A stretch of 64,000 nt of DNA from Taeniopygia guttata (GCF_048771995.1 NC_133041.1:4599324-4663323), one strand, 5' to 3'; shown: positions 2,400 through 62,096, numbered from the stretch's first letter. Notes: generated by a model not told the origin, from the sequence alone. Translations and numbers: made by a program.

Positions 2400-2602
2400 T
2401 CACTCCCTTTTCCCCTTCTCCCCCCTCCACCTGCGCAGGTTGAGCCCCAGCAGCGCCAGGTTAACCCCGTAGGTGCCGAGGCAGACCAGGCACAGGTCCC
2501 TGAGGCCGAAGAGCAGGACCCCCGCCAGCCACAGCGAGGCCAGCGCCGAGGCCACCGACGAGGCCACCAGGGCCACCGAGGCCACCCGGCCGCGCCGGAC
2601 AC
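2400..2602 (-). CDS. VKORC1: Vitamin K epoxide reductase complex subunit 1, exon 3 (terminal, includes stop)
   Basis: The minus-strand translation is GVRRGRVASVALVASSVASALASLWLAGVLLFGLRDLCLVCLGTYGVNLALLGLNLRRWRGEKGKRE*. It aligns to the VKORC1 C-terminal half (..[35 protein letters not shown]..) and includes the CxxC redox motif. The acceptor is ..ctgtggcag| at 2603-2604 (revcomp), and the phase (1 nt from exon 2) gives LLLG|V. Confidence 0.85.
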
Positions 2603-2639
2603 CTGCCACAGAGGTCACACCAGTTTGGCCCAGTTTGGC

Positions 2640-4600
2640 CCAGTTTGGTCCCAGTCTGTCCCCAGTTTGGCCTCAGTTTCCCCAGTTTGTTCCCAGTTTG
2701 TCCCAGTGTCCTCCTCAGTGTTCCCAGTTTGGTCCCAGTTCCTCCCCAGTTTGTCCCAGTTTCTCCCAGTGTCCTCCTCACCTTCCTCCACAGTTTGTCC
2801 CAGTTTCTCCCCAGTTTCTCCCAGTTTCTCTCCCAGTTTCCCCAGTTTGTCCCCAGTTTCCCCAGTTTGTCCCCAGTTTCCCCAGTTTGTCCCCAGTTTG
2901 TCCCCAGTTTGGCCCAGTTTGCCCCAGTTTGGCCCAGCCACAGCGAGGCCAGCGCCGAGGCCACCGACGAGGCCACCAGGGCCACCGAGGCCACCCGGCC
3001 GCGCCGGACACCTGCCAGAGAGGTCACACCGGTTTGGCCCAGTTTGGGCCCAGTCTGGCCCAGTTTGTCCCCGGTTTGGCCTTAATGTTCCCAGTCTGTC
3101 CCCAGTTTCTGCCCAGTTTGGCCTCAGTGTCCCCAGTTTGTCCCAGTGTCCTCCTCACCTTCCTCCCCAGTTTGTCCCAGTGTCCCCCAGTTTTTCTCAG
3201 TTTGTCCCAGTTTGTCCCCAGTCCCCTCCAATCCCCTCCCAGTCCCTCCCAGTCCCTCCCAGTTCCCTCCCAGTCCATCCCAGTATAACCCAGTCCCCCC
3301 AATCCCCCCAAAACCCCACCCAGTCCCTTCCAGTATAACTCAGTGCCCCCAAACCTCCTCCCAGTCTCTCCCAGTCCATCCCAGTAACCCCGAATTCCAT
3401 CCCAGTTCCCTGTAACCCCCTCCCAGTCCCTCCCAGTATAACCCAGTCCCCCCCAAACCCCCAAAAACCCCTCCCAGTCCCTCCCAGTCCCCTTTAACCC
3501 CCTCCCAGTCCATCCCAGTGCCCTTTAACCCTTTCCCAGTCCCTCCCAATCCCCCCAATCCACTCCCAGTCCTTCCCAGTCCCCTCCAATCCCATCCCAG
3601 TCTGTCCCAGTATAACCCAGTCCCCCCCAATCCCCTCCCAGTCCCCTTTAACCCCCTCCCAGTTCCCTCCCAGTCCCTCCCAATCCCTTTCCAGTCCATC
3701 CCAGTCCCTCCCAGTTCCCTCCCAGTCCCTCCCAACCCCCTCCCAGTCCCTCCCAGTCCATCCCAGTGCCTTTTAACCCTTTCCCAGTCCCCCCCAATCC
3801 CATCCCAGTCTGTCCCAGTATAACCCAGTCCCCCCCAATCCCCTCCCAGTGCCCTTTAACCCCCTCCCAGTTCATCCCAGTCCCTCCCAGTGCCCTTTAA
3901 CCCCCTCCCAGTTCCCTCCCAATCCCTTCCCAGTCCATCCCAGACCCCCCAATCCCTCCCAGTCCCCTCCCAGTCTATCCCAGTCCCCCCAAACTACCTC
4001 CCAGTCCCTCCCAGTGCCTTTTAACCCTTTCCCAGTTCCCTCCCAGTCCCTCCCAGTCCCCCCCAAACCCCCTCCCAGTCCCTCCCAGTGCCCTTTAACC
4101 CCCTCCCAGTCTCTCCCAGTGGCTCCCAGTCCCCCCCCAACACCCACCCAGTCCCTCCCAGTCCATCCCAGTGCCTTTTAACCCTTTCCCAGTTCCCTCC
4201 CAGTCCCCCCAATCCCCTCCCAGTCCCTCCCAATCCCTCCCAGTCCCCTCCCAGTCTATCCCAGTCCCTCCCAGTGCCCTTTAACCCCCTCCCAGCCCCT
4301 CCCAGTGGCTCCCAGTCCCCCCCAAACCCCCTCCCAGTGGCTCCCAGTGGCTCCCAGTATAACCCAGTCCCCCCCAACCCCCTCCCAGTCCCTCCCAGTC
4401 CCTCCCAGTGCCCCCCAAACCCCCTCCAAGTCCCTCCCAGTGGCTCCCAGTGACTCCCAGTCCCCCCCAAACCCCATCCCAGTCCCTCCCAGCCCCTCCC
4501 AGTCTATCCCAGTCCCCCCCAAACCCCATCCCAGTCCCTCCCAGCCCCTCCCAGTCCCTCCCAGTCCCCCCCAAACCCCCTCCCAGTGGCTCCCAGTACA
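2640..4600. repeat. Satellite (cccagtttg / ccctcccagt, ~9-10-bp unit) filling VKORC1 intron 2
   Basis: The periodicity is visible directly. Confidence 0.9.
2934..3041 (-). pseudogene. Partial duplicate (~105 bp, ~98% identical) of the VKORC1 exon 3 5' end plus its acceptor, lying inside intron 2
   Basis: Sequence 2936-3019 is identical to 2525-2608 (offset 411 bp), and the AG acceptor is retained (ctctctggcag|gtgtcc on the minus strand). Reading from this copy runs on into the cccagtttg satellite (ORF 2461-3027). Confidence 0.8.
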
Positions 4601-4622
4601 CCCCAGTGCCCGGGGTTGTTAC

Positions 4623-4732
4623 CCAGCAGCCCCTGCAGCAGGTAGAAGATCAGCCCGATGGCGCCATTGGGCACGTTCAGGGCGCTGGCCCCGCCCAGCA
4701 CCGGCTCCACCAGCCCCAGGCCACGCCCCCAC
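4623..4732 (-). CDS. VKORC1: VKORC1 exon 2 (110 nt)
   Basis: It encodes (R)WGRGLGLVEPVLGGASALNVPNGAIGLIFYLLQGLLG, matching VKORC1 [39 protein letters not shown]. The acceptor is ttttgcag|G and the donor G|GTAAC, and the 110-nt length is the same as human exon 2. Confidence 0.85.
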
Positions 4733-4849
4733 CTGCAAAAGGGGCGTGGCACCGCCGGGACACGCCCACAAATGGTTAGACACGCCCCCACGCCCATATA
4801 TGGTGTGTAACTGCGGATAAACCACGCTCCTTGTTTGTTGCTAAGCCAC

Positions 4850-5800
4850 GCCCACCACATTTACATATCCATAGATGGTCATGGCTGGGTTAAACCACAC
4901 CCCCTCAGCGAGATGCCACGCCTTCATATATGCAAATAGCCCATGCAAACATGGCCGCATGTGGAAATGAATGGAATAAACCACGCCTTCGTTTGCATAT
5001 ATGCAAATGACCCATGCAAATCATGCCTTCATGCCCATATATGGAATAAACCATGCCTCATGCCTATGTATGCAAATAAACCACACCTTCGCCCACCTAT
5101 GCAAATAACCCATGCAAACATGCCCATATATGGAAATAATAGACACAGACCACTCCTTCATGTGCATATATGCAAATAACCCATGCAAATCGCCTTCATG
5201 CCCATATATGCAAATAAACCACGCCTTTATGTCTATATATGCAAATAAACCATGCCTTCATGCCAATATATGCAAATAAACCATGCCCTCATGCCCATAT
5301 ATGCAAAAAATCCATGCAAATAACTCTTTTATGCCCATATCTGGAAATAAATTATGCAAACGATGTCCTCATGCCTATATATGCAAATAGCCCATTCAAA
5401 ACATGCATTCATATATGCAAATAAGTGACACAAACCACGCCTCCATGCCCATATATGCAAATAACCCATGCAAACAACTACTTCATGCCCATATATGCAA
5501 ATAAACCATGCCCTCATGCCCATATATGCAAATAACCTACACAAACCACCCCTGCATGCCCATATATGCAAATAACCCATGCAAACCATGCCTTCATGCA
5601 CATATATGTAAATAAACCATGCCCTCATGCCAATATATGCAAATAACCCATGCAAACCACCCCTGCATGCCATATATGCAAATAAACCATGCATTCATGC
5701 CCATACATGCAAATAACCCATGCAAACCACGCCTCCATGCTATATATGCAAATAAATCATGCAAACCACACCCCCATACCCATATATGGACACAGTATAT
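4850..5800. repeat. ~25-bp satellite (catgcccatatatgcaaataaaccatgcctt) in VKORC1 intron 1
   Basis: The periodicity is visible directly. Confidence 0.9.
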
Positions 5801-5939
5801 TTATTCATGCAATATAAATCTTTAATTAACATAAACCCCGCCCCTTATTTAAGCCACGCCTCTTCCCGTACTCCATACAAAGCCCCGCCCCTTTCTCCTC
5901 ACGGGCCCCGCCCACCACGCCCCCTAGCGAATCGCCCCG

Positions 5940-6130
5940 CCCCTCCACCACCATTGGCCGCCGCCTGACGCAAGCCCCGCCCACTCGCGTTTCCCTCACT
6001 ACCATTGGCCGCCGCCTCAGCAGGCCCCGCCCACTCAATTTTCCCGCCAACACCGCTGCCTAGCGGCCCGTCCTTCCCCTCCCCGCTATTGGCCGCCGCC
6101 TCACGCAAGCTCCGCCCACTCCCGTTCCCG
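5940..6130. promoter_or_regulatory. Three tandem modules of a CCAAT box plus GC box in VKORC1 intron 1
   Basis: The motif ccattggccgccgcc..(c)ccccgcccactc occurs three times (about 5953, 6004, 6087). Read on the VKORC1 sense strand each is a CCAAT box next to an Sp1-like GGGCGGGG site. Confidence 0.35.
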
Positions 6131-6174: not shown

Positions 6175-6329
6175 CGGGAGGAAAACACCCGCGTGCAGGA
6201 CACCGAGGGCCCCAGGTCGCAGGCGGCTCGGTAGGACGGGTCCTTGGCCACCTCATGCTCCACATGCAGCGCGTACACCGACAGCGCCGCGCCCGCCACA
6301 CACAGCGCCGCCCGCAGCGCCGCCGCCAT
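6175..6329 (-). CDS. VKORC1: VKORC1 exon 1 coding part (ATG at 6327-6329)
   Basis: It encodes [52 protein letters not shown], matching VKORC1 ..[35 protein letters not shown]. The donor is CG|GTAAAAG, leaving R split across exons 1 and 2. The tracked ORF begins at an upstream in-frame GTG (6368), but the first ATG is at 6329. Confidence 0.8.
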
Positions 6330-6720
6330 CGTCCAACCCCGATTGGGCGTCGCCGCTGCCACTCCCACCTCCCCTGTCCTGTGATTGGCCGGCGCGATGA
6401 AATCCCGCCTTGTTTCCGGTTGGGGCGCGGGGGTTGTTGGGAGTTGTAGTCCCGCGGGAAGTAACAGCGCGGATGAAAAATGGCGGGAGCGCGGCCAAGA
6501 TGGCGGCGGGGAGCTGAGTGAGGGCTCGGGCTCGGCCCCGCCGCTCCGGAGCCCTCCCGGAGGCCTTTGGGGAAGGTCGGGGCTCGGTGAGTGAGGCCCG
6601 GAGGGGTCCCGGGGGTCGCGGGGGTCCCGGGGGTGGCGGGGACGGGAGGGAATGGGTGGGATGGGGGGGCGGTGACGTCACGGGGCAAGATGGCGGCGGC
6701 GGCGTGAGGGGAAGGGGGGG
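6330..6720. promoter_or_regulatory. CpG-island promoter upstream of VKORC1, possibly bidirectional with PAGR1
   Basis: It is CpG-dense and carries a reverse CCAAT box (gtgattggccgg ~6382), an ETS-like ttccgg, gggagttgtagtcccg (reverse complement ACTACAACTCCC, a ZNF143/SBS-type motif), a CRE palindrome tgacgtca (~6672), and two YY1-core motifs caagatggcggcgg (6496, 6686), each followed by a gtgag(t/g)g donor-like site. Confidence 0.6.
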
Positions 6721-14181: not shown

Positions 14182-14336
14182 GCCCGCCCAGCCGGGGGCA
14201 GAAGCGCGAGGCGCGGCTGGACAAGGTCCTGTCGGACATGAAGCGCCACAAGCGGCTGGAGGAGCAGATCCTGCGCACCGGCCGGGACCTGTTCCCGCCC
14301 CAGGGCCAGCGCCCCTTCCCCCGCCACAAAAACTGA
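14182..14336 (+). CDS. PAGR1: PAGR1 terminal coding exon (stop TGA at 14334-14336)
   Basis: The acceptor is ccccatttcag|. It encodes (G)[50 protein letters not shown], a near-identical match to human PAGR1 [37 protein letters not shown]. Confidence 0.85.
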
Positions 14337-14439
14337 CGGAAAAGGGAAAAAATGCAAAAAAAAATAACAGTTCGGGCACCTCGTGGTGTTTTGGGTCGAT
14401 TTGGAGCTGTTTTAGGGAGTTATACATTGATTTTTGGGG

Positions 14440-17400
14440 CATTTCCGGCCAGGACCTGTTCCCGCCCCAGGGCCAGCGCCCCTTCCCCAGGCACAAAAAC
14501 TGACGGAAAATGGGAAAAAATGCAAAAAAAATAATGGTTTGGGCACTCCGTGCTGTTTTGGGACGATTTGGAGCTGTTTTAGGGAGTTATACATTGATTT
14601 TTGGGTGATTTTTGGGGCATTTCCGGCCGGGACCTGTTCCCGCCCCAGGGCCAGCGCCCCTTCCCCAGGCAGAAAAACTGAGGGAAAAAGGGAAAAAATT
14701 GAAAAAAATTAACATTTCAGGCACTCGGCCTCGTTTTGGGTGAATTTCGGTGGTTTTTGGGTGATTTTTGGGCAATTTTTGGGTGATTTTTGGGGCATTT
14801 CCGGCCGGGACCTGTTCCCGCCCCAGGGCCAGCGCCCCTTCCCCCGCCACAAAAACTAAGGGAAAAAGGGAAAAAATCCAAAAAAAATAACATTTACGGC
14901 ACCCCACGGTGTTTTGGGACGATTTGGAGCTGTTTTAGGGAGTTATACATTGATTTTTGGGTGATTTTTGGGTGATTTTTGGGGCATTTCCGGCCGGGAC
15001 CTGTTCCCGCCCCAGGGCCAGCGCCCCTTCCCCCGCCACAAAAACTGAGGGAAAAGGGAAAAAATTGAAAAAAAATAATAGTTTGGGCACCCCACGTTGT
15101 TTTGGGGCGTTTTAGGGAGTTGTACATTGATTTTTCGGTGATTTTTCGGTGATTTTTGGGAGTTGTACATTGATTTTTGGGTGATTTTTGGGGTATTTTT
15201 GGCCAGGACCTGTTCCCGCCCCAGGGCCAGCGCCCCTTCCCCCGCCACAAAAACTGAGGGAAAAGGGAAAAATGCAAAAAAAATAACGTTTCGGGCACCC
15301 TGTGGTGTTTTTGGGTGAATTTTGGTGGTTTTTGGGTGATTTTTGGGCGATTTTATGGAGTTATACGTTGATTTTTCTGTGATTTTTGGGAGTTGTACAT
15401 TGATTTTTGGGTCATTTTAGGGAGTTTTATGTGGATTTTTGGGTGATTTTTGGGACTTTTACATTGAATTTTGGGACTTGTACATTGATTTTTGGGTGAT
15501 TTTTGGGAGTTATACATTGATTTTTGGGTGATTTTTAAGAGTTGCACATTGATTTTTCGTGATTTTTTTGGGAGTTATACATTGATTTTTTGGGTGATTT
15601 TTGGGAGTTGTACGTTGATTTTTCAGTGATTTTTGGGAGTTGTACATTTATTTTTGGTGATTTTTGGGGTGATTTTTGGGGTGATTTGGGGCATTTCCGG
15701 CCGGGACCTGTTCCCGCCCCAGGGCCAGCGCCCCTTCCCCCGCCACAAAAACTGACGGAAAATGGGAAAAATGCAAAAAAAATAACGTTTCGGGCACCCT
15801 GTGGTGTTTTTGGGTGAATTTTGGTGGTTTTTGGGTGATTTTTGGGCGATTTTATGGAGTTATACGTTGATTTTTCTGTGATTTTTGGGAGTTGTACATT
15901 GATTTTTGGGTCATTTTAGGGAGTTTTATGTGGATTTTTGGGTGATTTTTGGGACTTTTACATTGAATTTTGGGACTTGTACATTGATTTTTGGGTGATT
16001 TTTGGGAGTTATACATTGATTTTTGGGTGATTTTTAAGAGTTGCACATTGATTTTTCGTGATTTTTTTGGGAGTTATACATTGATTTTTTGGGTGATTTT
16101 TGGGAGTTGTACGTTGATTTTTCAGTGATTTTTGGGAGTTGTACATTTATTTTTGGTGATTTTTGGGGTGATTTTTGGGGTGATTTGGGGCATTTCCGGC
16201 CGGGACCTGTTCCCGCCCCAGGGCCAGCGCCCCTTCCCCAGGCACAAAAACTGAGGGAAAATGGGAAAAAATCCAAAAAAAAAAACATTTCAGGCACCTC
16301 ACGGTGTTTTGGGTCATTTTACGGAGTTGTACATTGATTTTTGGGTGATTTTTGGGGCATGTTTTACCAGGACCTGTTCCCGCCCCAGGGGCAGCGCCCC
16401 TTCCCCCGCCACAAAAACTGAGGGAAATGGGAAAAATGCAAAAAAAAATAACGTTTTGGGCATCTGGCGTTGTTTTGGGCGAATTTGGTGGTTTTTGGGT
16501 GATTTTTGGGCGATTTTATGGAGTTATACGTTGATTTTTGGGTGATTTTTGGGAGTTGTACATTGATTTTTCAGTGATTTTTGGAACTTGTACATTGATT
16601 TTTGGTGATTTTTGGGTTACTTTTGGGAGTTGTACATTGATTTTTGGGTGATTTTTGGGACTTGTACATTGATTTTTGGGAGTTGTACGTTGGTTTTTGG
16701 GTGATTTTTGGGTGATTTTTGGGGCATTTCCGGCCGGGACCTGTTCCCGCCCCAGGGCCAGCGCCCCTTCCCCAGGCACAAAAACTGAGGGAAAAAGGGA
16801 AAAAATGCAAAAAAAATAACGTTTCGGGCACTCGGCCTCGTTTTGGGTGAATTTCGGTGGTTTTTGGGTGATTTTATGGAGTTATACATTGATTTTTCGG
16901 TGATTTTTGGGAGTTATACATTGATTTTTCAGTGATTTTTGGGAGTTGTACATTGATTTTTCAGTGATTTTTGGAACTTGTACATTGATTTTTGGTGATT
17001 TTTGGGTTACTTTTGGGAGTTGTACATTGATTTTTGGGTGATTTTTGGGACTTGTACGTTGATTTTTGGGTGATTTTTCAGTGATTTTTGGGAGTCGTAC
17101 GTTGATTTTTGGGTGATTTTCGGCTGGGACCTGTTCCCGCCCCAGGGCCAGCGCTCCTTCCCACGGCACAAAAACTGACGGAAAAGGGGAAAAATGCAAA
17201 AAAAAATAACATTTACGGCACCCCACGGTGTTTTTGGGTCGTTTTAGGGAGTTGTACATTGATTTTTGGGTGATTTTTGGGAGTTGTACATTGATTTTTG
17301 GGTGATTTTTGGGGCATTTCCGGCCGGGACCTGTTCCCGCCCCAGGGCCAGCGCCCCTTCCCCAGGCACAAAAACTGAGGGAAAATGGCAAAAAATGCAA

Positions 17401-17740
17401 AAAAATAACATTTCAGGCACCCTGCCTCGTTTTGGGTGAATTTCGGAGGTTTTTGGGTGATTTTTGGGAGTTAAACACTGATTTTTCAGTGATTTTTCAG
17501 AGTTGTACATTGATTTTTCAGGGAATTTTGGGAGTTGTACATTGATTTTTGGGTGATTTTTGGGTGATTTTTAGGAGTTTTATGTTGATTTTTGGGAGTT
17601 GTACGTTGATTTTCAGGTGATTTTAGGGACTTCTACGTTGATTTTTGGGTGATTTTTGGGGCATTTCCGGCCGGGACCTGTTCCCGCCCCAGGGCCAGCG
17701 CCCCTTCCCCCGCCACAAAAACTGAGGGAAAAGGGAAAAA
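14440..17740 (+). other. About 12 partial copies of the PAGR1 last-exon 3' end (last ~17 codons plus stop plus the start of the 3' UTR), embedded in a ~35-bp satellite
   Basis: The unit gggacctgttcccgccccagggccagcgccccttcccc[ca]g[gc]cacaaaaactga[cg]ggaaaa.gggaaaaaatgcaaaaaaaataac recurs at about 14449, 14628, 14808, 14990, 15203, 15696, 16197, 16360, 16731, 17128, 17323 and 17664. Confidence 0.8.
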
Positions 17741-54862: not shown

Positions 54863-55004
54863 GGCGGCGCAGATCGAGCTGCTGCAGCACCTGGTGGCCG
54901 TGGCCCACGAGCACCAGCTGGGGGTGCCCCTGGAGCTGAAAATCAAATTCAACATCGTGGCCTCGCTCTACGACTACAACCCCAACCTGGCCGCCTACAT
55001 GAAG
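54863..55004 (+). CDS. EIF3C: EIF3C exon 12
   Basis: It encodes (R)[47 protein letters not shown], matching human [47 protein letters not shown]. Confidence 0.9.
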
Positions 55005-55009
55005 GTGAA

Positions 55010-56150
55010 ATCGGGGCAAAAAACGGGGAAATCGGGCAAAAAACACAGAAAAAAAAAAGGGGAAATCGGGCAAAAAATAGAGAAAAAAAATGGGGAAAAT
55101 TGGGGCAAAAATGGGGTTAAAAATGTGATTTATTTGGATTTTTTTTTGATTTTTTGAAGGTAAAAGAAGGGTTAAAAATGAAATTTAAAAGGGAAAAAAA
55201 TTGGGGAAAATTGAGATAAAATAAGCAAAAAATTGGGGAAAATTTAATTAAAATTTGGTGAAAAAAGGGTTAAAAATGGGATTTATTTGGATTTTTGGGG
55301 AATTTTTTAAGGGAAAATAAGGGTTAAAAATGAAATTATAAAAGGGAAAACTGGGGGGAAATTAAGATAAAATGGGGAGAAAATTGGGGAAAATTTGGTG
55401 AAAATTGGGTGAAAAAAGGAATAAAAATGACGATAATAATGGGATTTATTTGGGTTTTTGGGACTACAACCCCAACCTGGCCGCCTACATGAAGGTGAAA
55501 ACGGGGCAAAAAACAGCGAAATTGGGCAAAAAATAGAGAAAAAAACCCGGGGGAAATTGGGGCAAAAATGGAGAAAATATGGAGAAAATATGGGGAAAAA
55601 AAGGTGGAAAATTGGGGTTAAAAATGTGATTTATTTGGATTTTTTTGCGATTTTTTTAAGGGAAAATAAGGGTTAAAAATGAAATTAAAAAGGGAAAAAA
55701 TTGGGGAAAATTAAAAGAAAATGAGGAAAAAATTGGGGGAAATTTGGTGAAAATTGGGTGAAAAAAGGAATAAAAATGGGGATAAAAATGGGATTTATTT
55801 GGATTTTGGGGATTTTTTAAAGGTAAAACAAGGGTTAAAAATGGAGGAAGAATGGGGAAAATTGAGATAAAATTAGGAAAAAATTGGGGAAAATTTGGTG
55901 AAAATTGGGTGAAAAAAGGGTGAAAAATGGGGATAAAATGGGATTTATTTGGATTTTTTTAAAGGTAAAACAAGGGTTAAAAATGAAATTAAAAAGGGAA
56001 AAAATGGGGGAAAATTGAGATAAAATGAGGGAAAAATTTGGTGAAATTTGGTGAGAAAAGGAATAAAAATGGGGTTAAAAATGGGATTTATTTGGGTTTT
56101 TGGGACTACAACCCCAACCTGGCCGCCTACATGAAGGTGAAAACGGGGCA
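55010..56150 (+). other. Two partial copies of the EIF3C exon 12 3' end plus donor in a ~640-bp higher-order repeat
   Basis: The unit gactacaaccccaacctggccgcctacatgaag|gtgaaaacggggcaaaaaac occurs at about 55463 and 56103. In the copies the breakpoint lies inside the exon, before GACTAC. Confidence 0.8.
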
Positions 56151-56639: not shown

Positions 56640-57514
56640 GGCGGATCTATAGGGTGAGTTTCTATAGGCGGAGCTGTGGCAGCGCTGCCTGGGATGTATA
56701 GAGGAGCTCCTGGAGCTGCTATGGGGCAGATCTATAGGCTCGGGGCGGATCTATGGGCTCGGGGCGGATCTATGGGGCAGATCTATGGGTCAGACAGGAT
56801 CTATGGGGCGGATCTATAGGGTGATATTCTATAGGCGGAGCTGTGGCAGCGCTGCCTGGGATGTATAGAGGAGCTCCTGGAGCTGCTATGGGGCAGATCT
56901 ATAGGCTCGGGGCGGATCTATAGGGCAGATCTATGGGTCAGACAGGATCTATGGGTCAGACAGGATCTATGGGTCAGGGCGGATGTGTGGGTCAGGATCT
57001 ATAGGGTGATATTCCATAGGCGGAGCTGTGGCAGCGCTGCCTGGGATGTATAGAGGAGCTCCTGGAGCTGCTATGGGGCAGATCTATGGGCTCGGGGCGG
57101 ATCTATGGGGCAGGATGGATCTATAGGGCAGGATCTGTGGGTCAGGATCTATGGGGCAGATCTATAGGGTGAGTTTCTATAGGCGGAGCTGTGGCAGCGC
57201 TGCCTGGGATGTATAGAGGAGCTCCTGGAGCTGCTATGGGGCAGATCTATAGGCTCGGGGCGGATCTATGGGGCAGGGTGGATCTATAGGGCAGATCTAT
57301 GGGTCAGACAGGATCTATGGGGCGGATCTATAGGGTGATATTCTATAGGCAGAGCTGTGGCAGCGCTGCCTGGGATGTATAGAGGAGCTCCTGGAGCTGC
57401 TATGGGGCAGATCTATGGGCTCGGGGCGGATCTATGGGGCAGGATGGATCTATAGGGCGGATCTGTGGGTCAGACAGGATCTATGGGGCGGATCTATAGG
57501 GTGATATTCTATAG
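56640..57514 (+). other. Five upstream partial copies of the EIF3C exon 13 acceptor plus its first ~53 nt in a ~170-bp tandem array
   Basis: The unit ttctatag|gc[ga]gagctgtggcagcgctgcctgggatgtatagaggagctcctggagctgct occurs at about 56669, 56836, 57021, 57181 and 57351. The copies diverge after GCTGCT into atggggcagatctat.., and only the final copy continues into the real exon. Confidence 0.85.
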
Positions 57515-57640
57515 GCAGAGCTGTGGCAGCGCTGCCTGGGATGTATAGAGGAGCTCCTGGAGCTGCTCTTTGCCCACCCCGAGATCTTCGTGGGCGAAAA
57601 CGTCCTCGAGGAGTCCGAGAACCTCAGCAACCCCGAGCAG
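57515..57640 (+). CDS. EIF3C: EIF3C exon 13
   Basis: It encodes [42 protein letters not shown], matching human [42 protein letters not shown]. The acceptor is ttctatag| and the donor CAG|GTATGG. Confidence 0.85.
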
Positions 57641-59589: not shown

Positions 59590-61929
59590 GGTGTGCCCAG
59601 GTGTGTCCAGGTGTGACCTCAGTGTACCTGGAGCACCTGAAGGATCCAAACCCTGAACGGGGGCTCACCTGGAGCTCACCTGGCTGTGATTTCGATGGGA
59701 TTTTTGGGGTTTTTTTGGACTTTTTTGGGTTTTTTGGGGTTTCTTGGGGTTTTTTTGGCATTTTAATCCCTCACCTGCCCACAAGGTGTGCCCAAGTGTG
59801 CCCAGGTGTGCCCAGGTGAATCCTCAGAACTCCTGGAGCACCTGAAGGATCCAAATCCTGAGCTGGAGCTCACCTGGCTGGGATTTTGATGTGGTTTTTT
59901 GGGGGTTTTTTGGGTTTTTTGGTGTTTTTTGGGTTTTTAAAGTCTCACCTGCCCACCAGGTGTGCCCAGGTGTGACCTCAGTGTACCTGGAGCACCTGAA
60001 GGATCCAAACCCTGAACTGAGACTCACCTGGAGCTCACCTGGGGCTCACCTGGATGGATTTTGGAGGATTTTTGGGGTATTTTTGGGCTTTTTTGACATT
60101 TTAATCCCTCACCTGCCCACAAGGTGTGCCCACAAGGTGTGCCCAGGTGTGCCCAGGTGAATCCTCAGAACTCCTGGAGCACCTGAAGGAGCTGGAGCCT
60201 CACCTGGGGCTCACCTGGAGCTCACCTGGCTGGGGATTTTGGGGATTTTTTGGAGTATTTTGTGGGTTTTTTGGGTTTTTAGGTCTCACCTGCCCAACAG
60301 GTGTGCTCAGGTGAGTCCTCAGAACACCTGGAGCCTCACCTGGGGCTCACCTGGCTGGGTTTTTTGGGGATTTTTTGGGCTTTTTTTGGTTTTTTTGGTG
60401 TTTTTTTGGCATTTTAATCCCTCACCTGCCCACCAGGTGTGCCCAGCTGTGCCCAGGTGAGTCCTCAGAACACCTGGAGCACCTGAAGGAGGTGGAGCCT
60501 CACCTGGAGCTCACCTGGCTGGGATTTCGATGTGGTTTTTGGCTTTTTTTTTGTCCTTTTTTTGGTTTTTTTTTTGGTTTTTTTTCTTTTTTCGCTATTT
60601 GCCCCCTCACCTGCCCGCCAGGTAACCCAGGTGTGTCCTTTCAGAGTACGTGGAGCACCTGAAGGATCCAAACCCTGAACTGGGGCTCACCTGGCTGGGA
60701 TTTCAATGGGATTTTTGGGGTTTTTTTGGGTTTTTTGGTATTTTCAGCCTCACCTGCCCGCCAGGTGACCCCGCCAGGTAACCCAGGTGTGTCTTTGCAG
60801 AGTACGTGGAGCACCTGAAGGAGCCGGAGCCTCACCTGGAGCTCACCTGGCTGTAATTTTGATGTGGTTTTTGGCGCTTTTTTGTCCTTTTTTTGGATTT
60901 TTTTTTTGCATTTTCCGCTATTTCCCCCTCACCTGCCCGCCAGGTAACCCAGGTGTGCCTTCACAGAGTACGTGGAGCACCTGAAGGAGCTGGAGCCTCA
61001 CCTGGGGCTCATCTGAGGCTCATCTGGAGCTCACCTGGCTGGGATTTCAATGTGATTTTTTGGGGTATTTTTGGGGATTTTTGGTGTTTTTTGGGTTTTG
61101 AAGGTCTCACCCCTCAGCCAGGTGTGTCCAGGTGAGTCCTCAGAACAATTGGAGAACCTGAAGGAGCCGGAGCCTCACCTGGCTGGGATTTTGGGGATTT
61201 CTTGGTGTATTTTTGGCCTTTTTTTGTCCTTTTTTTGGGTTTTTTTGGGGTTTTTTTTGCCACTTCCCCCCTCACCTGCCTGCCAGGTGTGCTCAGGTGT
61301 GCCCAGGTGTGACCAGGTGTGACTTCAGTGTACCTGGAGCACCTGAAGGATCCAAACCCTGAACTGAGACTCACCTGGAGCTCACCTGGAGCTCACCTGG
61401 AGCTCACCTGGGGCTCACCTGGGGCTCACCTGGCTACGATTTTGGGGTTTTTTGGGCTTTTTTAATCATTTTTTTGGATTTTTTTCCTTTTTTCACTACT
61501 TCCACCCTCACCTGCCCGCCAGGTAACCCACCAGGTAACCCAGGTGTGTCTTTCAGAGTACGTGGAGCACCTGAAGGATCCAAACCCTGAACTGGGGCTC
61601 ACCTGGAGCTCACCTGGCTGCGATTTTGGGGATTTCTTGGTGTATTTTTGGCTTTTTTTTGTCCTTTTTTTGGGTTTTTTTTCCTTTTTTCGCTATTTCC
61701 TCCCTCACCTGCCCGCCAGGTGAGCTCAGCTGTGCCCAGGTGTGTCCAGGTGAGTCCTGAGAACACCTGGAGCACCTGAAGGATCCAAACCCTGAACTGG
61801 AGCTCACCTCGCTATGATTTCTATGTGATTTTTCGGGGTTTTTTAGGTTTTTTGGGCGTTTTTTTGGCATTTTCACCTTTACCTGCCCGCCAGGTGACCC
61901 CGCCAGGTAACCCAGGTGTCTCTTCCCAG
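59590..61929 (+). other. About 12 upstream partial copies of the EIF3C exon 15 acceptor plus first ~22 nt, in a ~150-190-bp tandem array
   Basis: The motif (t)ttcag|agtacgtggagcacctgaag and the variants cag|aacacctggagcacctgaag and cag|tgtacctggagcacctgaag occur at about 59609, 59828, 59972, 60166, 60466, 60644, 60800, 60965, 61140, 61325, 61548 and 61757. Each is followed by gatccaaaccctgaactgg..ctcacctgg rather than the exon body. Confidence 0.85.
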
Positions 61930-62096
61930 AGTACGTGGAGCACCTGAAGGACGAGGCGCGGGTGTGCGGCATCATCGGGCGGCTGCAGCGCTACCTGCAG
62001 GCCAAGGGCAGCCCCGAGGAGCTGTGCCGGGTGTACCTGCTGCGCGTCCTCCACACCTACTACAAGTTCGACTACGCCGCCGCCCGCCGCCGCCAG
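61930..62096 (+). CDS. EIF3C: EIF3C exon 15
   Basis: It encodes (E)[55 protein letters not shown], matching human [55 protein letters not shown]. Confidence 0.9.

What the first reader, a model, noticed from the sequence alone, without database searches (positions are those of the whole stretch)
2934..3041. Intronic duplicate of the VKORC1 exon 3 5' end with a preserved acceptor
A ~105-bp segment, ~98% identical to the start of VKORC1 exon 3 including the cag| acceptor, lies 411 bp upstream in transcript sense inside intron 2. If used it yields GVRRGRVASVALVASSVASALASLWL followed by read-through into satellite. This product would be truncated before the CxxC active site.
Basis: seen in the sequence. 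Interest (0 to 1): 0.55.

Follow-up and report, generated by a model that had tools for sequence, protein, structure and literature searches.

The report
Stuttered exon-edge copy in VKORC1 intron
A 409-bp tandem duplication in the zebra finch VKORC1 gene has put a second, intact copy of the exon-3 splice acceptor and the first 78 exon bases inside intron 2; this looks like a songbird case of the "exon stuttering" recently described on chicken dot chromosomes, and is most likely a tolerated by-product of repeat instability, not a functional element.

Summary
Window 2934-3045 matches 2525-2636 at 110 of 112 bases. The 78 exon bases are identical, the CAG acceptor is kept, and both mismatches are intronic. 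The gene is zebra finch VKORC1 on the minus strand; its spliced product is 100% identical to the NCBI protein. The copy is the second unit of a head-to-tail 409-bp duplication. The junction lies at 2933|2934 on a 4-nt microhomology between exon 3 and the intronic 10-11-bp minisatellite.

The decoy acceptor is at least as good as the true one. Together with a strong donor-like site (AAG|GTGAGG) it forms a complete 230-nt pseudo-exon. Using the decoy would not truncate the protein. It would give frameshifted products of 271 or 245 aa without the CxxC.

The same architecture recurs in this window at EIF3C (three exon edges) and PAGR1 (13 copies), and at VKORC1 in a chickadee. It fits "exon stuttering" (Hron et al. 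2026), so far described only in chicken.

Two viduid finches have a single copy, so the event arose after that split. Whether the decoy is spliced, and whether it is polymorphic, could not be tested. This is a new member of a known kind, of modest interest.

The parts
6175..6329 (-). VKORC1 exon 1 coding part (ATG at 6329-6327; donor CCG|GTAAAA)
   Evidence: Translation and splicing; tblastn; the spliced product equals P0001 at 100%.
4623..4732 (-). VKORC1 exon 2 (110 nt; donor TGG|GTAACA; ends in phase 1)
2603..4622 (-). VKORC1 intron 2 (2020 nt), almost wholly 10-11-bp minisatellite. The unit is CCCAGTCCCT-type at 3217-4597 and CCAGTTTGGCC-type at 2620-2935 and 3032-3222.
   Evidence: Tandem Repeats Finder; a CAAACTGGG minisatellite also lies just upstream of exon 3 in Vidua and, less regularly, in Anomalospiza.
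2400..2602 (-). VKORC1 exon 3 coding part. The true acceptor AG is at 2604-2603, the CxxC codons at 2492-2481 and the stop codon at 2402-2400.
2525..2933 (-). Duplication unit, copy 1 (409 bp): first 78 nt of exon 3, the true acceptor and about 330 nt of intronic minisatellite
   Evidence: (family D18, spacing 409).
2934..3166 (-). Duplication unit, copy 2, securely homologous part: exon fragment, decoy acceptor, proximal intron and the landmark. Weaker satellite-level similarity runs on to about 3300.
2934..3011 (-). Exon-3-derived fragment inside intron 2 (78 nt, 100% identical to 2525-2602)
3012..3013 (-). Decoy acceptor AG (context ...gtgacctctCtggcag|GTGTCC). It differs from the true site only at -7 (G to C) and -20 (T to C).
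   Evidence: the longest pyrimidine run is 7 against 5, and pyrimidines in -20..-4 number 10/17 against 9/17.
2934..2937 (.). Duplication junction (2933|2934). The 4-nt microhomology CCAG (CTGG on the transcript strand) is shared by exon 3 (2525-2528) and the minisatellite unit.
   Evidence: Read directly from the sequence and from the alignments.
2776..2784 (-). Donor-like site AAG|GTGAGG (last 'exon' base 2782). With the decoy acceptor it delimits a 230-nt pseudo-exon, 3011..2782.
   Evidence: 8 of 9 consensus matches, against 6/9 and 5/9 by my count from the real donor sequences printed in that call; 230 mod 3 = 2.
3153..3161 (-). Paralogous copy of the donor-like motif in unit 2, upstream of the decoy acceptor in the transcript. 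It lies within the exact 25-nt landmark 3142-3166.
2461..2463 (-). Stop codon (TAA) reached in the +1 frame if the decoy acceptor is used with read-through (271-aa product)

Best explanation
The feature is a real, lineage-specific tandem duplication of 409 bp as it now stands. It spans the intron 2 / exon 3 boundary of zebra finch VKORC1. The most likely origin (inferred) is replication slippage or unequal exchange between a CTGG in exon 3 and the same tetranucleotide in the CAAACTGGG minisatellite that fills the 3' end of intron 2. This is the single-extra-copy stage of 'exon stuttering', the local tandem expansion that copies exon edges with their splice sites into the repeat-filled introns of avian dot-chromosome genes. 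The whole extra unit lies upstream of the true acceptor, so splicing from exon 2 to the downstream acceptor removes it and gives the normal 155-aa enzyme. The duplication is therefore silent as long as the downstream site is chosen. The upstream copy is a decoy 3' splice site with no function of its own. If it is used, it gives either a 409-nt longer last exon (271-aa product) or a 230-nt cassette ending at AAG|GTGAGG (245-aa product). Both are frameshifted after Leu114 and lack TM4 and the CxxC redox centre, so they are presumably inactive. Shown here: the structure, the junction, the coding consequences, the recurrence at other genes, and the absence from two viduid outgroups. Inferred: the mutational mechanism, a young age, neutrality, and predominant use of the true acceptor.
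For: Structure: 78/78 identical exon bases plus the acceptor; copy 2 begins where copy 1 ends; CCAG microhomology at the junction. An exact 25-nt landmark found only twice in the window extends the homology to at least 233 nt. The window has no Ns. Gene model: the spliced product equals the NCBI zebra finch VKORC1 at 100% under two accessions, neither carrying an isoform label, and no decoy-derived protein appeared among 107 homologues. Lineage: Vidua chalybeata and Anomalospiza imberbis each have one exon-3 copy, and a CAAACTGGG minisatellite lies upstream of the acceptor in Vidua and, less regularly, in Anomalospiza. Both zebra finch copies share all zebra-finch-specific substitutions. Recurrence in the same window: the EIF3C acceptor edge occurs 6 times, 50/50 identical. 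The EIF3C donor edge occurs 3 times, and the 5' edge of another EIF3C exon about 4 times. The 3' edge of the last PAGR1 exon occurs 13 times. Recurrence elsewhere: in Poecile atricapillus the 3' part of VKORC1 exon 3 is repeated 6 more times. Published kind: Hron et al. [quoted passage not shown] They report that the source lies within 1 base of the exon border in more than 90% of cases, that exon parts are 20-187 bp, that there are 1-44 copies, and that the splice site is copied, creating potential alternative transcripts. Re-running their blastn-short test here gives bit score 155 against their cut-off of 42.1. All five EIF3C decoys keep an intact tatag|GC acceptor, although I know eIF3c to be a core translation initiation factor. 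Intact decoys are thus evidently tolerated.
Against: No transcript data could be consulted, so predominant use of the true acceptor rests only on the annotated protein and on the gene's presumed importance. By sequence the decoy should compete well: it has the same branch-point candidate, a longer pyrimidine run, the same first 78 exon bases, and a downstream donor-like site closer to consensus than either real VKORC1 donor. No independent zebra finch assembly or reads could be examined. Between the core and the landmark the satellite is no more similar than random satellite pieces (68% against a 70% background), so the original extent of the unit is uncertain. Placement on a dot chromosome is inferred only from the 5.74-Mb record length and the dot-chromosome size given in the zebra finch T2T paper. 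Hron et al. themselves note that single-copy cases may come from other processes.
Confidence: 0.75

Rival explanations
1. Assembly artefact: the extra 409-bp unit is a false expansion made while assembling a minisatellite- and G4-rich region that is hard to sequence.
For: The zebra finch T2T paper reports that HiFi coverage is related to minisatellite content on dot chromosomes and that non-B DNA motifs hinder HiFi sequencing. In the Vidua locus a 99% identical 1.7-kb copy that includes exon 2 abuts a 500-N gap and looks like a false duplication. No second zebra finch assembly could be fetched.
Against: The window has no gap or N. The junction is seamless and sits on a microhomology. The two units differ by point changes, by a 32-nt length difference before the landmark and by heavily diverged satellite; that does not look like a repeated read or a collapsed haplotig. 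The same architecture occurs at several other exon edges in this window and in independent assemblies of other species. In chicken it was verified with raw nanopore reads.
Confidence: 0.07
2. Functional alternative splicing: the decoy acceptor, alone or with the AAG|GTGAGG donor as a 230-nt poison exon, is used at an appreciable and possibly regulated level and lowers the output of active VKORC1.
For: The decoy acceptor is slightly better than the true one: a pyrimidine run of 7 against 5. The donor-like site matches 8/9 consensus positions, against 6/9 and 5/9 for the real donors. At 230 nt the pseudo-exon has a typical internal-exon size, and it is transcribed first. A human 403-bp duplication of an exon-intron junction (FGG) does cause aberrant splicing.
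Against: The NCBI protein carries two zebra finch accessions, both the canonical product and neither with an isoform label. No decoy-derived protein is among the homologues. The sequence after the 78-nt fragment is intron-like minisatellite with twice the G-run density of the real exon (7.6 against 3.9 per 100 nt); from general knowledge, such runs tend to act as silencers within exons. EIF3C carries five intact decoy acceptors in the same window. Both products are frameshifted, and nothing indicates selection on the copy: 0 differences in the 78 exon bases against 2 in the 34 intron bases is not significant (about P = 0.09 that both fall in the intron).
Confidence: 0.12
3. An old duplicate kept identical by gene conversion with the real exon 3 (concerted evolution), possibly feeding variants back into the exon.
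For: The exon fragment is 100% identical while the adjacent satellite is at background similarity. Exon-derived parts are also 100% identical across 6 and 13 copies in the EIF3C and PAGR1 arrays. The 5' part of exon 3 is unusually diverged from Vidua: 76.8% identity, against 96-97% for exons 1 and 2. Hron et al. propose non-crossover gene conversion as one possible mechanism.
Against: Minisatellites change by slippage far faster than unique sequence, so the contrast is also expected for a young duplication. The unique part has only 2 differences in 112 nt, which is consistent with youth. The copy is absent from both viduid outgroups. There is no estrildid comparison to show age.
Confidence: 0.1

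Closest known systems
Exon stuttering / sequence stuttering of avian dot-chromosome genes (Hron et al., Genome Biol Evol 2026, PMC12954441)
   Same: It is a direct tandem copy of the lateral part of a coding exon, together with its splice site, in the adjacent intron. The intron is filled with imperfect short tandem repeats. The source starts at the exon border. The exon part is 78 bp, within their 20-187 bp range. The real exon is left intact. The setting is GC-rich and G4-rich. EIF3C, which shows the same thing in this window, is in their chicken list.
   Different: They screened only chicken, where copies number 1-44 with a median of 4. Here it is a songbird, a gene not found in the text of the two supplementary files held for that paper, and only one extra copy. 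They call that stage possibly early, or possibly due to other processes. The intraspecific length variation that they regard as a main feature was not testable here.
Pathogenic duplication of an exon-intron junction: FGG exon 8-intron 8, 403 bp (Guipponi et al. 2021, PMC9052919)
   Same: An intragenic tandem duplication of about 400 bp duplicates a splice site and offers the spliceosome two equivalent sites.
   Different: In FGG the donor is duplicated, and minigenes showed aberrant transcripts with premature stops that cause disease. Here the acceptor is duplicated, and the normal mRNA can be made simply by using the downstream site. No splicing data exist for this case.
Rogers model: tandem duplication supplies duplicated splice signals so that the redundant segment is spliced out (Hellsten et al. 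2011, PMC3265369)
   Same: A segmental tandem duplication within a gene is made harmless because the duplicated part can be removed as intron, leaving the peptide unchanged.
   Different: In that model a new intron is created within an exon from a duplicated AGGT. Here the duplication straddles an existing intron-exon boundary, so the existing intron simply becomes 409 nt longer.
Alternative or mutually exclusive exons born by tandem exon duplication (Kondrashov and Koonin 2001; Letunic et al. 2002; cited from my own knowledge, not from a tool)
   Same: Tandem duplication of exon sequence within a gene creates alternative splice choices.
   Different: In those cases whole exons are duplicated in frame and give functional isoforms. 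Here only 78 nt of the last exon are copied, and every product that uses the copy is frameshifted.

Membership tests
Exon stuttering (Hron et al. 2026) | [quoted passage not shown] | tested here: met
   Exon 3 nt 1-78 recur once in intron 2 in the same orientation. Unit 2 starts where unit 1 ends.
Exon stuttering (Hron et al. 2026) | The source lies at the exon border (within 1 base in more than 90% of cases), so the copy spans the exon-intron border and carries the splice site | tested here: met
   The blastn-short hit starts at exon base 1. The AG acceptor and at least 34 nt of proximal intron are copied.
Exon stuttering (Hron et al. 2026) | Exon-to-intron blastn-short bit score above the shuffled control (their cut-off 42.1) and hit length of at least 20 | tested here: met
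   Bit score 155 over 78 nt at 100% identity; the best of 50 shuffled controls was 20.3.
Exon stuttering (Hron et al. 2026) | The host intron is heavily covered by imperfect simple or tandem repeats | tested here: met
   Tandem Repeats Finder arrays cover 2620-2935 and 3032-4597 of intron 2603-4622.
Exon stuttering (Hron et al. 2026) | Location on a dot microchromosome | tested here: inconclusive
   The record carrying the gene is 5,740,876 bp, and zebra finch dot chromosomes are given as 5.99 +/- 1.57 Mbp. Chicken EIF3C is on dot chromosome 38. The window's own chromosome identity is not given.
Exon stuttering (Hron et al. 2026) | Extensive length variation of the intron between individuals | not testable with these tools
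   No second zebra finch assembly or reads could be reached.
Exon stuttering (Hron et al. 2026) | Clusters of several copies (median 4) | tested here: not met
   Only one extra copy is present. The authors accept single copies but flag them as possibly early, or as due to other processes. Multi-copy arrays of the same design occur at EIF3C and PAGR1 in this window.
VKORC1 (VKOR family, Pfam PF07884) | The spliced product is a VKOR-domain protein with the CxxC redox motif, orthologous to VKORC1 rather than VKORC1L1 | tested here: met
   It is 100% identical to NCBI VKORC1 of T. guttata, which carries PF07884. CLVC is at residues 126-129. BCKDK lies immediately downstream in Vidua, and EIF3C and PAGR1 are in the same window. 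From my own knowledge, this matches the human 16p11.2 neighbourhood of VKORC1.
Alternative 3' splice site / poison exon | Intact splice signals: AG, pyrimidine tract, branch-point candidate and, for a cassette, a downstream donor | tested here: met
   cag|G is kept, the pyrimidine run is 7, and the same gTGAC branch-point candidate is present at -13. AAG|GTGAGG lies 230 nt downstream.
Alternative 3' splice site / poison exon | Transcripts that actually use the site | not testable with these tools
   No RNA-seq is available. The only indirect evidence is that the zebra finch VKORC1 protein (two NCBI accessions) is the canonical product without an isoform label.

The most novel reading that the evidence does not exclude
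The decoy acceptor and the near-consensus donor 230 nt downstream form a poison exon that is actually included in a sizeable share of VKORC1 transcripts. Exon stuttering would then act as a fast-mutating, heritable dial on the dosage of dot-chromosome genes. It could be a first step toward the gene attrition seen on these chromosomes, and here it would make zebra finches partly VKORC1-deficient and dependent on VKORC1L1.
Probability: 0.1. Interest if true: 0.6.

Novelty: new member of a known kind. Interest (0 to 1): 0.3.

Why it matters
Taken alone, this is a small structural quirk in one bird gene. Its value is as a clean, minimal example of exon stuttering: two units, an exact junction and a 4-nt microhomology. 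That phenomenon was described only in 2026, only in chicken, and its mechanism is unknown. The example shows three things. First, the process also operates in songbirds: zebra finch VKORC1, EIF3C and PAGR1, and chickadee VKORC1. Second, the breakpoint lies on a tetranucleotide shared by the exon and the adjacent minisatellite unit, which points to slippage or template switching seeded by the minisatellite. Third, one event can create a full pseudo-exon with splice signals at least as good as the real ones. This makes a concrete question testable: how do dot-chromosome genes ignore intact decoy splice sites? It also warns annotators that models in these regions can pick the wrong copy.

Tried and rejected
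1. Looking up the spliced zebra finch protein to fetch independent assemblies failed. Lonchura isoform X2 and Agelaius X1 were not on record either. The old Lonchura assembly holds only exon 1 amid gaps.

2. A composite query was built from the decoy-derived product plus the other five reading frames across the junction. It was meant to catch transcript or read-assembly ORFs that span the junction. That result is uninformative, and the search was wasted.

3. An exact search of metagenome contigs for the exon fragment found nothing.

4. I first read the EIF3C array as having lost its CAG acceptor in 4 of 5 decoys, which would suggest selection against decoys. I rejected this after locating the previous exon. 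That exon ends in phase 0 (...YMK|gtgaa, at 55004), so the real acceptor is tatag|GCA, and it is intact in all copies.

5. Numerical splice-site scores (MaxEntScan) could not be computed offline. Only position-by-position differences and consensus match counts are given.

6. I considered treating the open reading frame through the minisatellite as evidence of coding. I rejected this because every minus-strand frame of the satellite has few stops.

7. A literature search for VKORC1 with zebra finch found nothing relevant.

Full report
**What is there**

The left end of the window carries a three-exon gene on the minus strand.
- Exon 1 coding part: 6329-6175.
- Exon 2: 4732-4623.
- Exon 3 coding part: 2602-2400.

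The spliced product is 155 aa. It is 100% identical to the NCBI protein [quoted passage not shown] (P0001; XP_041575461.1 and XP_072792559.1; Pfam PF07884). The window is therefore zebra finch DNA. Orthology to VKORC1 rather than VKORC1L1 is supported by BCKDK lying just downstream in Vidua and by EIF3C and PAGR1 in the same window. From my own knowledge, this is the human 16p11.2 neighbourhood. Introns and flanks are almost entirely minisatellite. The window contains no N.

Window 2934-3045 matches 2525-2636 at 110 of 112 positions.
- The 78 exon-derived bases (2934-3011 against 2525-2602) are identical.
- The next 34 intronic bases, which include the AG acceptor, differ at two positions.
- An 80-nt pattern across the fragment and acceptor occurs exactly twice in 64 kb, against none in shuffles.
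- A blastn-short comparison of exon 3 with intron 2 gives bit score 155, against at most 20.3 for shuffled introns.

The offset is 409 bp, not 411. The first base after the decoy acceptor is 3011, not 3020.

**Anatomy**

The copy is the second unit of a head-to-tail duplication. Unit 1 is 2525-2933 and unit 2 begins at 2934.

The junction falls within CCAG (CTGG on the transcript strand). This tetranucleotide occurs both in exon 3 (...GCTGTGGCTGG|CGGGG) and in the intronic unit (...AAACTGG|GCCAAACTGG).

Homology extends beyond the 112-nt core. A 25-nt landmark, CCCAGTGTCCTCCTCACCTTCCTCC, is exact and present only twice in the window: 162 nt beyond the true acceptor and 130 nt beyond the decoy. 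The satellite between the core and the landmark is no more similar than random pieces of the same satellite (68% against a 70% background). I attribute this to fast minisatellite turnover.

**Coding and splicing consequences**

The decoy acceptor (...gtgacctctCtggcag|GTGTCC) differs from the true one (...gtgacctctGtggcag|GTGTCC) only at -7 (G to C) and -20 (T to C). This gives it a pyrimidine run of 7 instead of 5.

On the transcript strand the landmark reads GGAAG|GTGAGGAGG. In unit 1 this places an 8/9-consensus donor 230 nt downstream of the decoy acceptor. The real donors of exons 1 and 2 match 6/9 and 5/9 (my count from the sequences). The duplication has thus assembled a complete pseudo-exon, 3011..2782.

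- Using the decoy with read-through gives a 271-aa protein. The frame stays open through the 409 nt, re-enters exon 3 in the +1 frame and stops at 2463-2461.
- Including the 230-nt cassette gives a 245-aa protein.

Both products diverge after Leu114 and lack the in-frame CLVC motif (residues 126-129). The open frame is not evidence of coding, because all minus-strand frames of this satellite have few stops.

**Comparative evidence**

Vidua chalybeata and Anomalospiza imberbis (Viduidae) each have a single exon-3 copy. A CAAACTGGG minisatellite lies just upstream of the acceptor in Vidua and, less regularly, in Anomalospiza. Both zebra finch copies share all zebra-finch-specific substitutions. 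The event therefore postdates the estrildid-viduid split.

With 2 differences in 112 unique bases it is probably young, but two substitutions do not allow real dating. Lonchura striata has an identical protein sequence in this region, but its locus could not be fetched.

**It is not a one-off**

A self-comparison of the window led to further cases.
- The acceptor edge of an EIF3C exon (tatag|GCAGAGCTGTGG...) occurs six times with a 163-185-bp period, 50/50 identical. Only the last copy continues into the exon.
- The donor edge of the preceding EIF3C exon (...TACATGAAG|GTGAAA) occurs three times.
- The 5' edge of another EIF3C exon occurs about four times.
- The 3' end of the last PAGR1 coding exon, including its stop codon, occurs 13 times.

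Gene identities were confirmed by homology. In the black-capped chickadee, the CxxC-encoding 3' part of VKORC1 exon 3 is repeated six more times downstream of the gene.

**Relation to what is known**

Hron et al. (Genome Biol Evol 2026, PMC12954441) describe "sequence stuttering" in genes of chicken dot chromosomes. A subset of cases is "exon stuttering": a lateral part of an exon, with its splice donor or acceptor, is copied through the adjacent intron, "creating potential alternatively spliced transcripts".

Their figures:
- sources within 1 base of the exon border in more than 90% of cases;
- exon parts of 20-187 bp;
- 1-44 copies, median 4;
- 190 of 236 affected introns on dot chromosomes.

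They screened only chicken and regard the mechanism as unknown; they suggest G4-linked replication stress or meiotic gene conversion. EIF3C is in their chicken list. VKORC1 was not found in the two supplementary files held as text.

The zebra finch T2T paper reports minisatellite- and G4-rich introns in dot-chromosome euchromatin but does not mention exon copies.

The VKORC1 duplicate meets every sequence-level criterion of exon stuttering that I could test. The exception is copy number: there is only one extra copy. Intraspecific polymorphism and dot-chromosome location could not be established directly; the 5.74-Mb record length fits a dot chromosome.

**Mechanism and rivals**

Best explanation (confidence about 0.75): this is a real, recent duplication seeded by microhomology with the minisatellite. 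It is silent when the downstream acceptor is used and leaves a non-functional decoy.

Evidence that decoys are tolerated:
- EIF3C, which I know to be a core translation initiation factor, carries five intact decoy acceptors in this window.
- The zebra finch protein carries two NCBI accessions, both the canonical VKORC1 product and neither with an isoform label. By NCBI's naming convention, from my own knowledge, this suggests a single protein isoform is annotated.
- The sequence after the 78-nt fragment has twice the G-run density of the real exon.

Rivals:
- Assembly artefact (about 0.07). Against it: a seamless microhomology junction, diverged units, no gaps, and recurrence across loci and species.
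- Appreciable or regulated use as an alternative acceptor or poison exon (about 0.12). The splice signals are good enough that this cannot be dismissed. A human 403-bp junction duplication in FGG does derail splicing.
- An old duplicate homogenised by gene conversion (about 0.1).

**What could not be done**

No RNA-seq, reads or second zebra finch assembly were reachable. One large protein search was wasted on a composite low-complexity query. Proper splice-site scores were not computable offline.

**Verdict**

- The feature is a new songbird member of the recently described exon-stuttering class.
- Interest is modest (0.3). The main open question is whether the decoy, or the 230-nt pseudo-exon, is ever spliced.

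Noticed in passing
window 56671-57567 (+): The acceptor edge of an EIF3C exon (tatag|GCAGAGCTGTGGCAGCGC..., protein [18 protein letters not shown]...) is repeated 6 times at 56671, 56838, 57023, 57186, 57352 and 57518, with a period of 163-185 bp and 50/50 identity. Only the last copy continues into the real exon, and all five decoys keep the AG acceptor.
   Followed up: yes
window 54972-56148 (+) and 60620-61950 (+): More EIF3C exon-edge copies. The last 33 nt plus the donor of the exon ending at 55004 recur at 55462 and 56104, with 1 mismatch each. The 5' edge of the exon starting near 61928 recurs at 60620, 60776 and 60942, and a shorter copy lies near 61532-61579.
   Followed up: partly
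window 14285-17710 (+): The 3' end of the last PAGR1 coding exon ([18 protein letters not shown], with the start of the 3' UTR) is repeated 13 times downstream of the gene. The period is 167-500 bp, with 0-2 mismatches in 37 nt.
   Followed up: partly
L005 4699-6300 (Poecile atricapillus, GCA_030490865.1): The CxxC-encoding 3' part of VKORC1 exon 3 (DLCVVCVSTYGVNLALLWLN...) is repeated six more times downstream of the gene, with periods of 172-276 bp. Each copy is preceded by ...GGGGTCAG|GACCTG.
   Followed up: partly
L001 1-1733 vs 3198-4932 (Vidua chalybeata): A 1.7-kb stretch that includes VKORC1 exon 2 is present twice at 99% identity. The upstream copy abuts a 500-N gap (1734-2233), so it is probably a false duplication in that assembly.
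   Followed up: partly
window 4900-5800 (VKORC1 intron 1): The 31/40-bp minisatellite of intron 1 carries 21 perfect ATGCAAAT motifs, which I recognise as the octamer motif. All are on the + strand, and they are the only + strand occurrences in the whole window.
   Followed up: no
window 2605-4622 (VKORC1 intron 2): There are 49 non-overlapping G-quadruplex motifs (G3+N1-7 x4) on the transcript-sense strand of intron 2 and none on the other strand. This fits the G4 link proposed for stuttering.
   Followed up: no
window 2525-2636 vs L001 5590-5700: The 5' part of exon 3 with its acceptor region (112 nt aligned) is only 76.8% identical to Vidua, against 96-97% for exons 1 and 2. The zebra finch exon here also has a 12-nt internal periodicity (CGAGGCCACCGA x4, coding VASV/ALVA/SSVA/SALA).
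   Followed up: no
proteins P0106, P0107, P0054, P0109: Database models near this locus look like annotation casualties of the repeats. Zebra finch A0A674H295 reads from exon 1 into the intron 1 minisatellite. The old Lonchura model fuses VKORC1 exon 1 to BCKDK. Agelaius phoeniceus isoform X1 reads exon 3 in a shifted frame, the same frame the 230-nt cassette would give here. The Turdus rufiventris EIF3C fragment repeats FLDPNLEEEE...[15 protein letters not shown] twice.
   Followed up: no
window 5939-6103 and 6380-6400 (-): Three copies of a CCAAT-box/GC-box module (GGCGGCGGCCAATGG...GGGCGGGG) lie just inside intron 1, and another CCAAT lies upstream of the ATG. A short ATGGCGGCGGCGGCG|GTGAGG on the + strand near 6690-6712 looks like the first exon of a divergently transcribed neighbour.
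   Followed up: no
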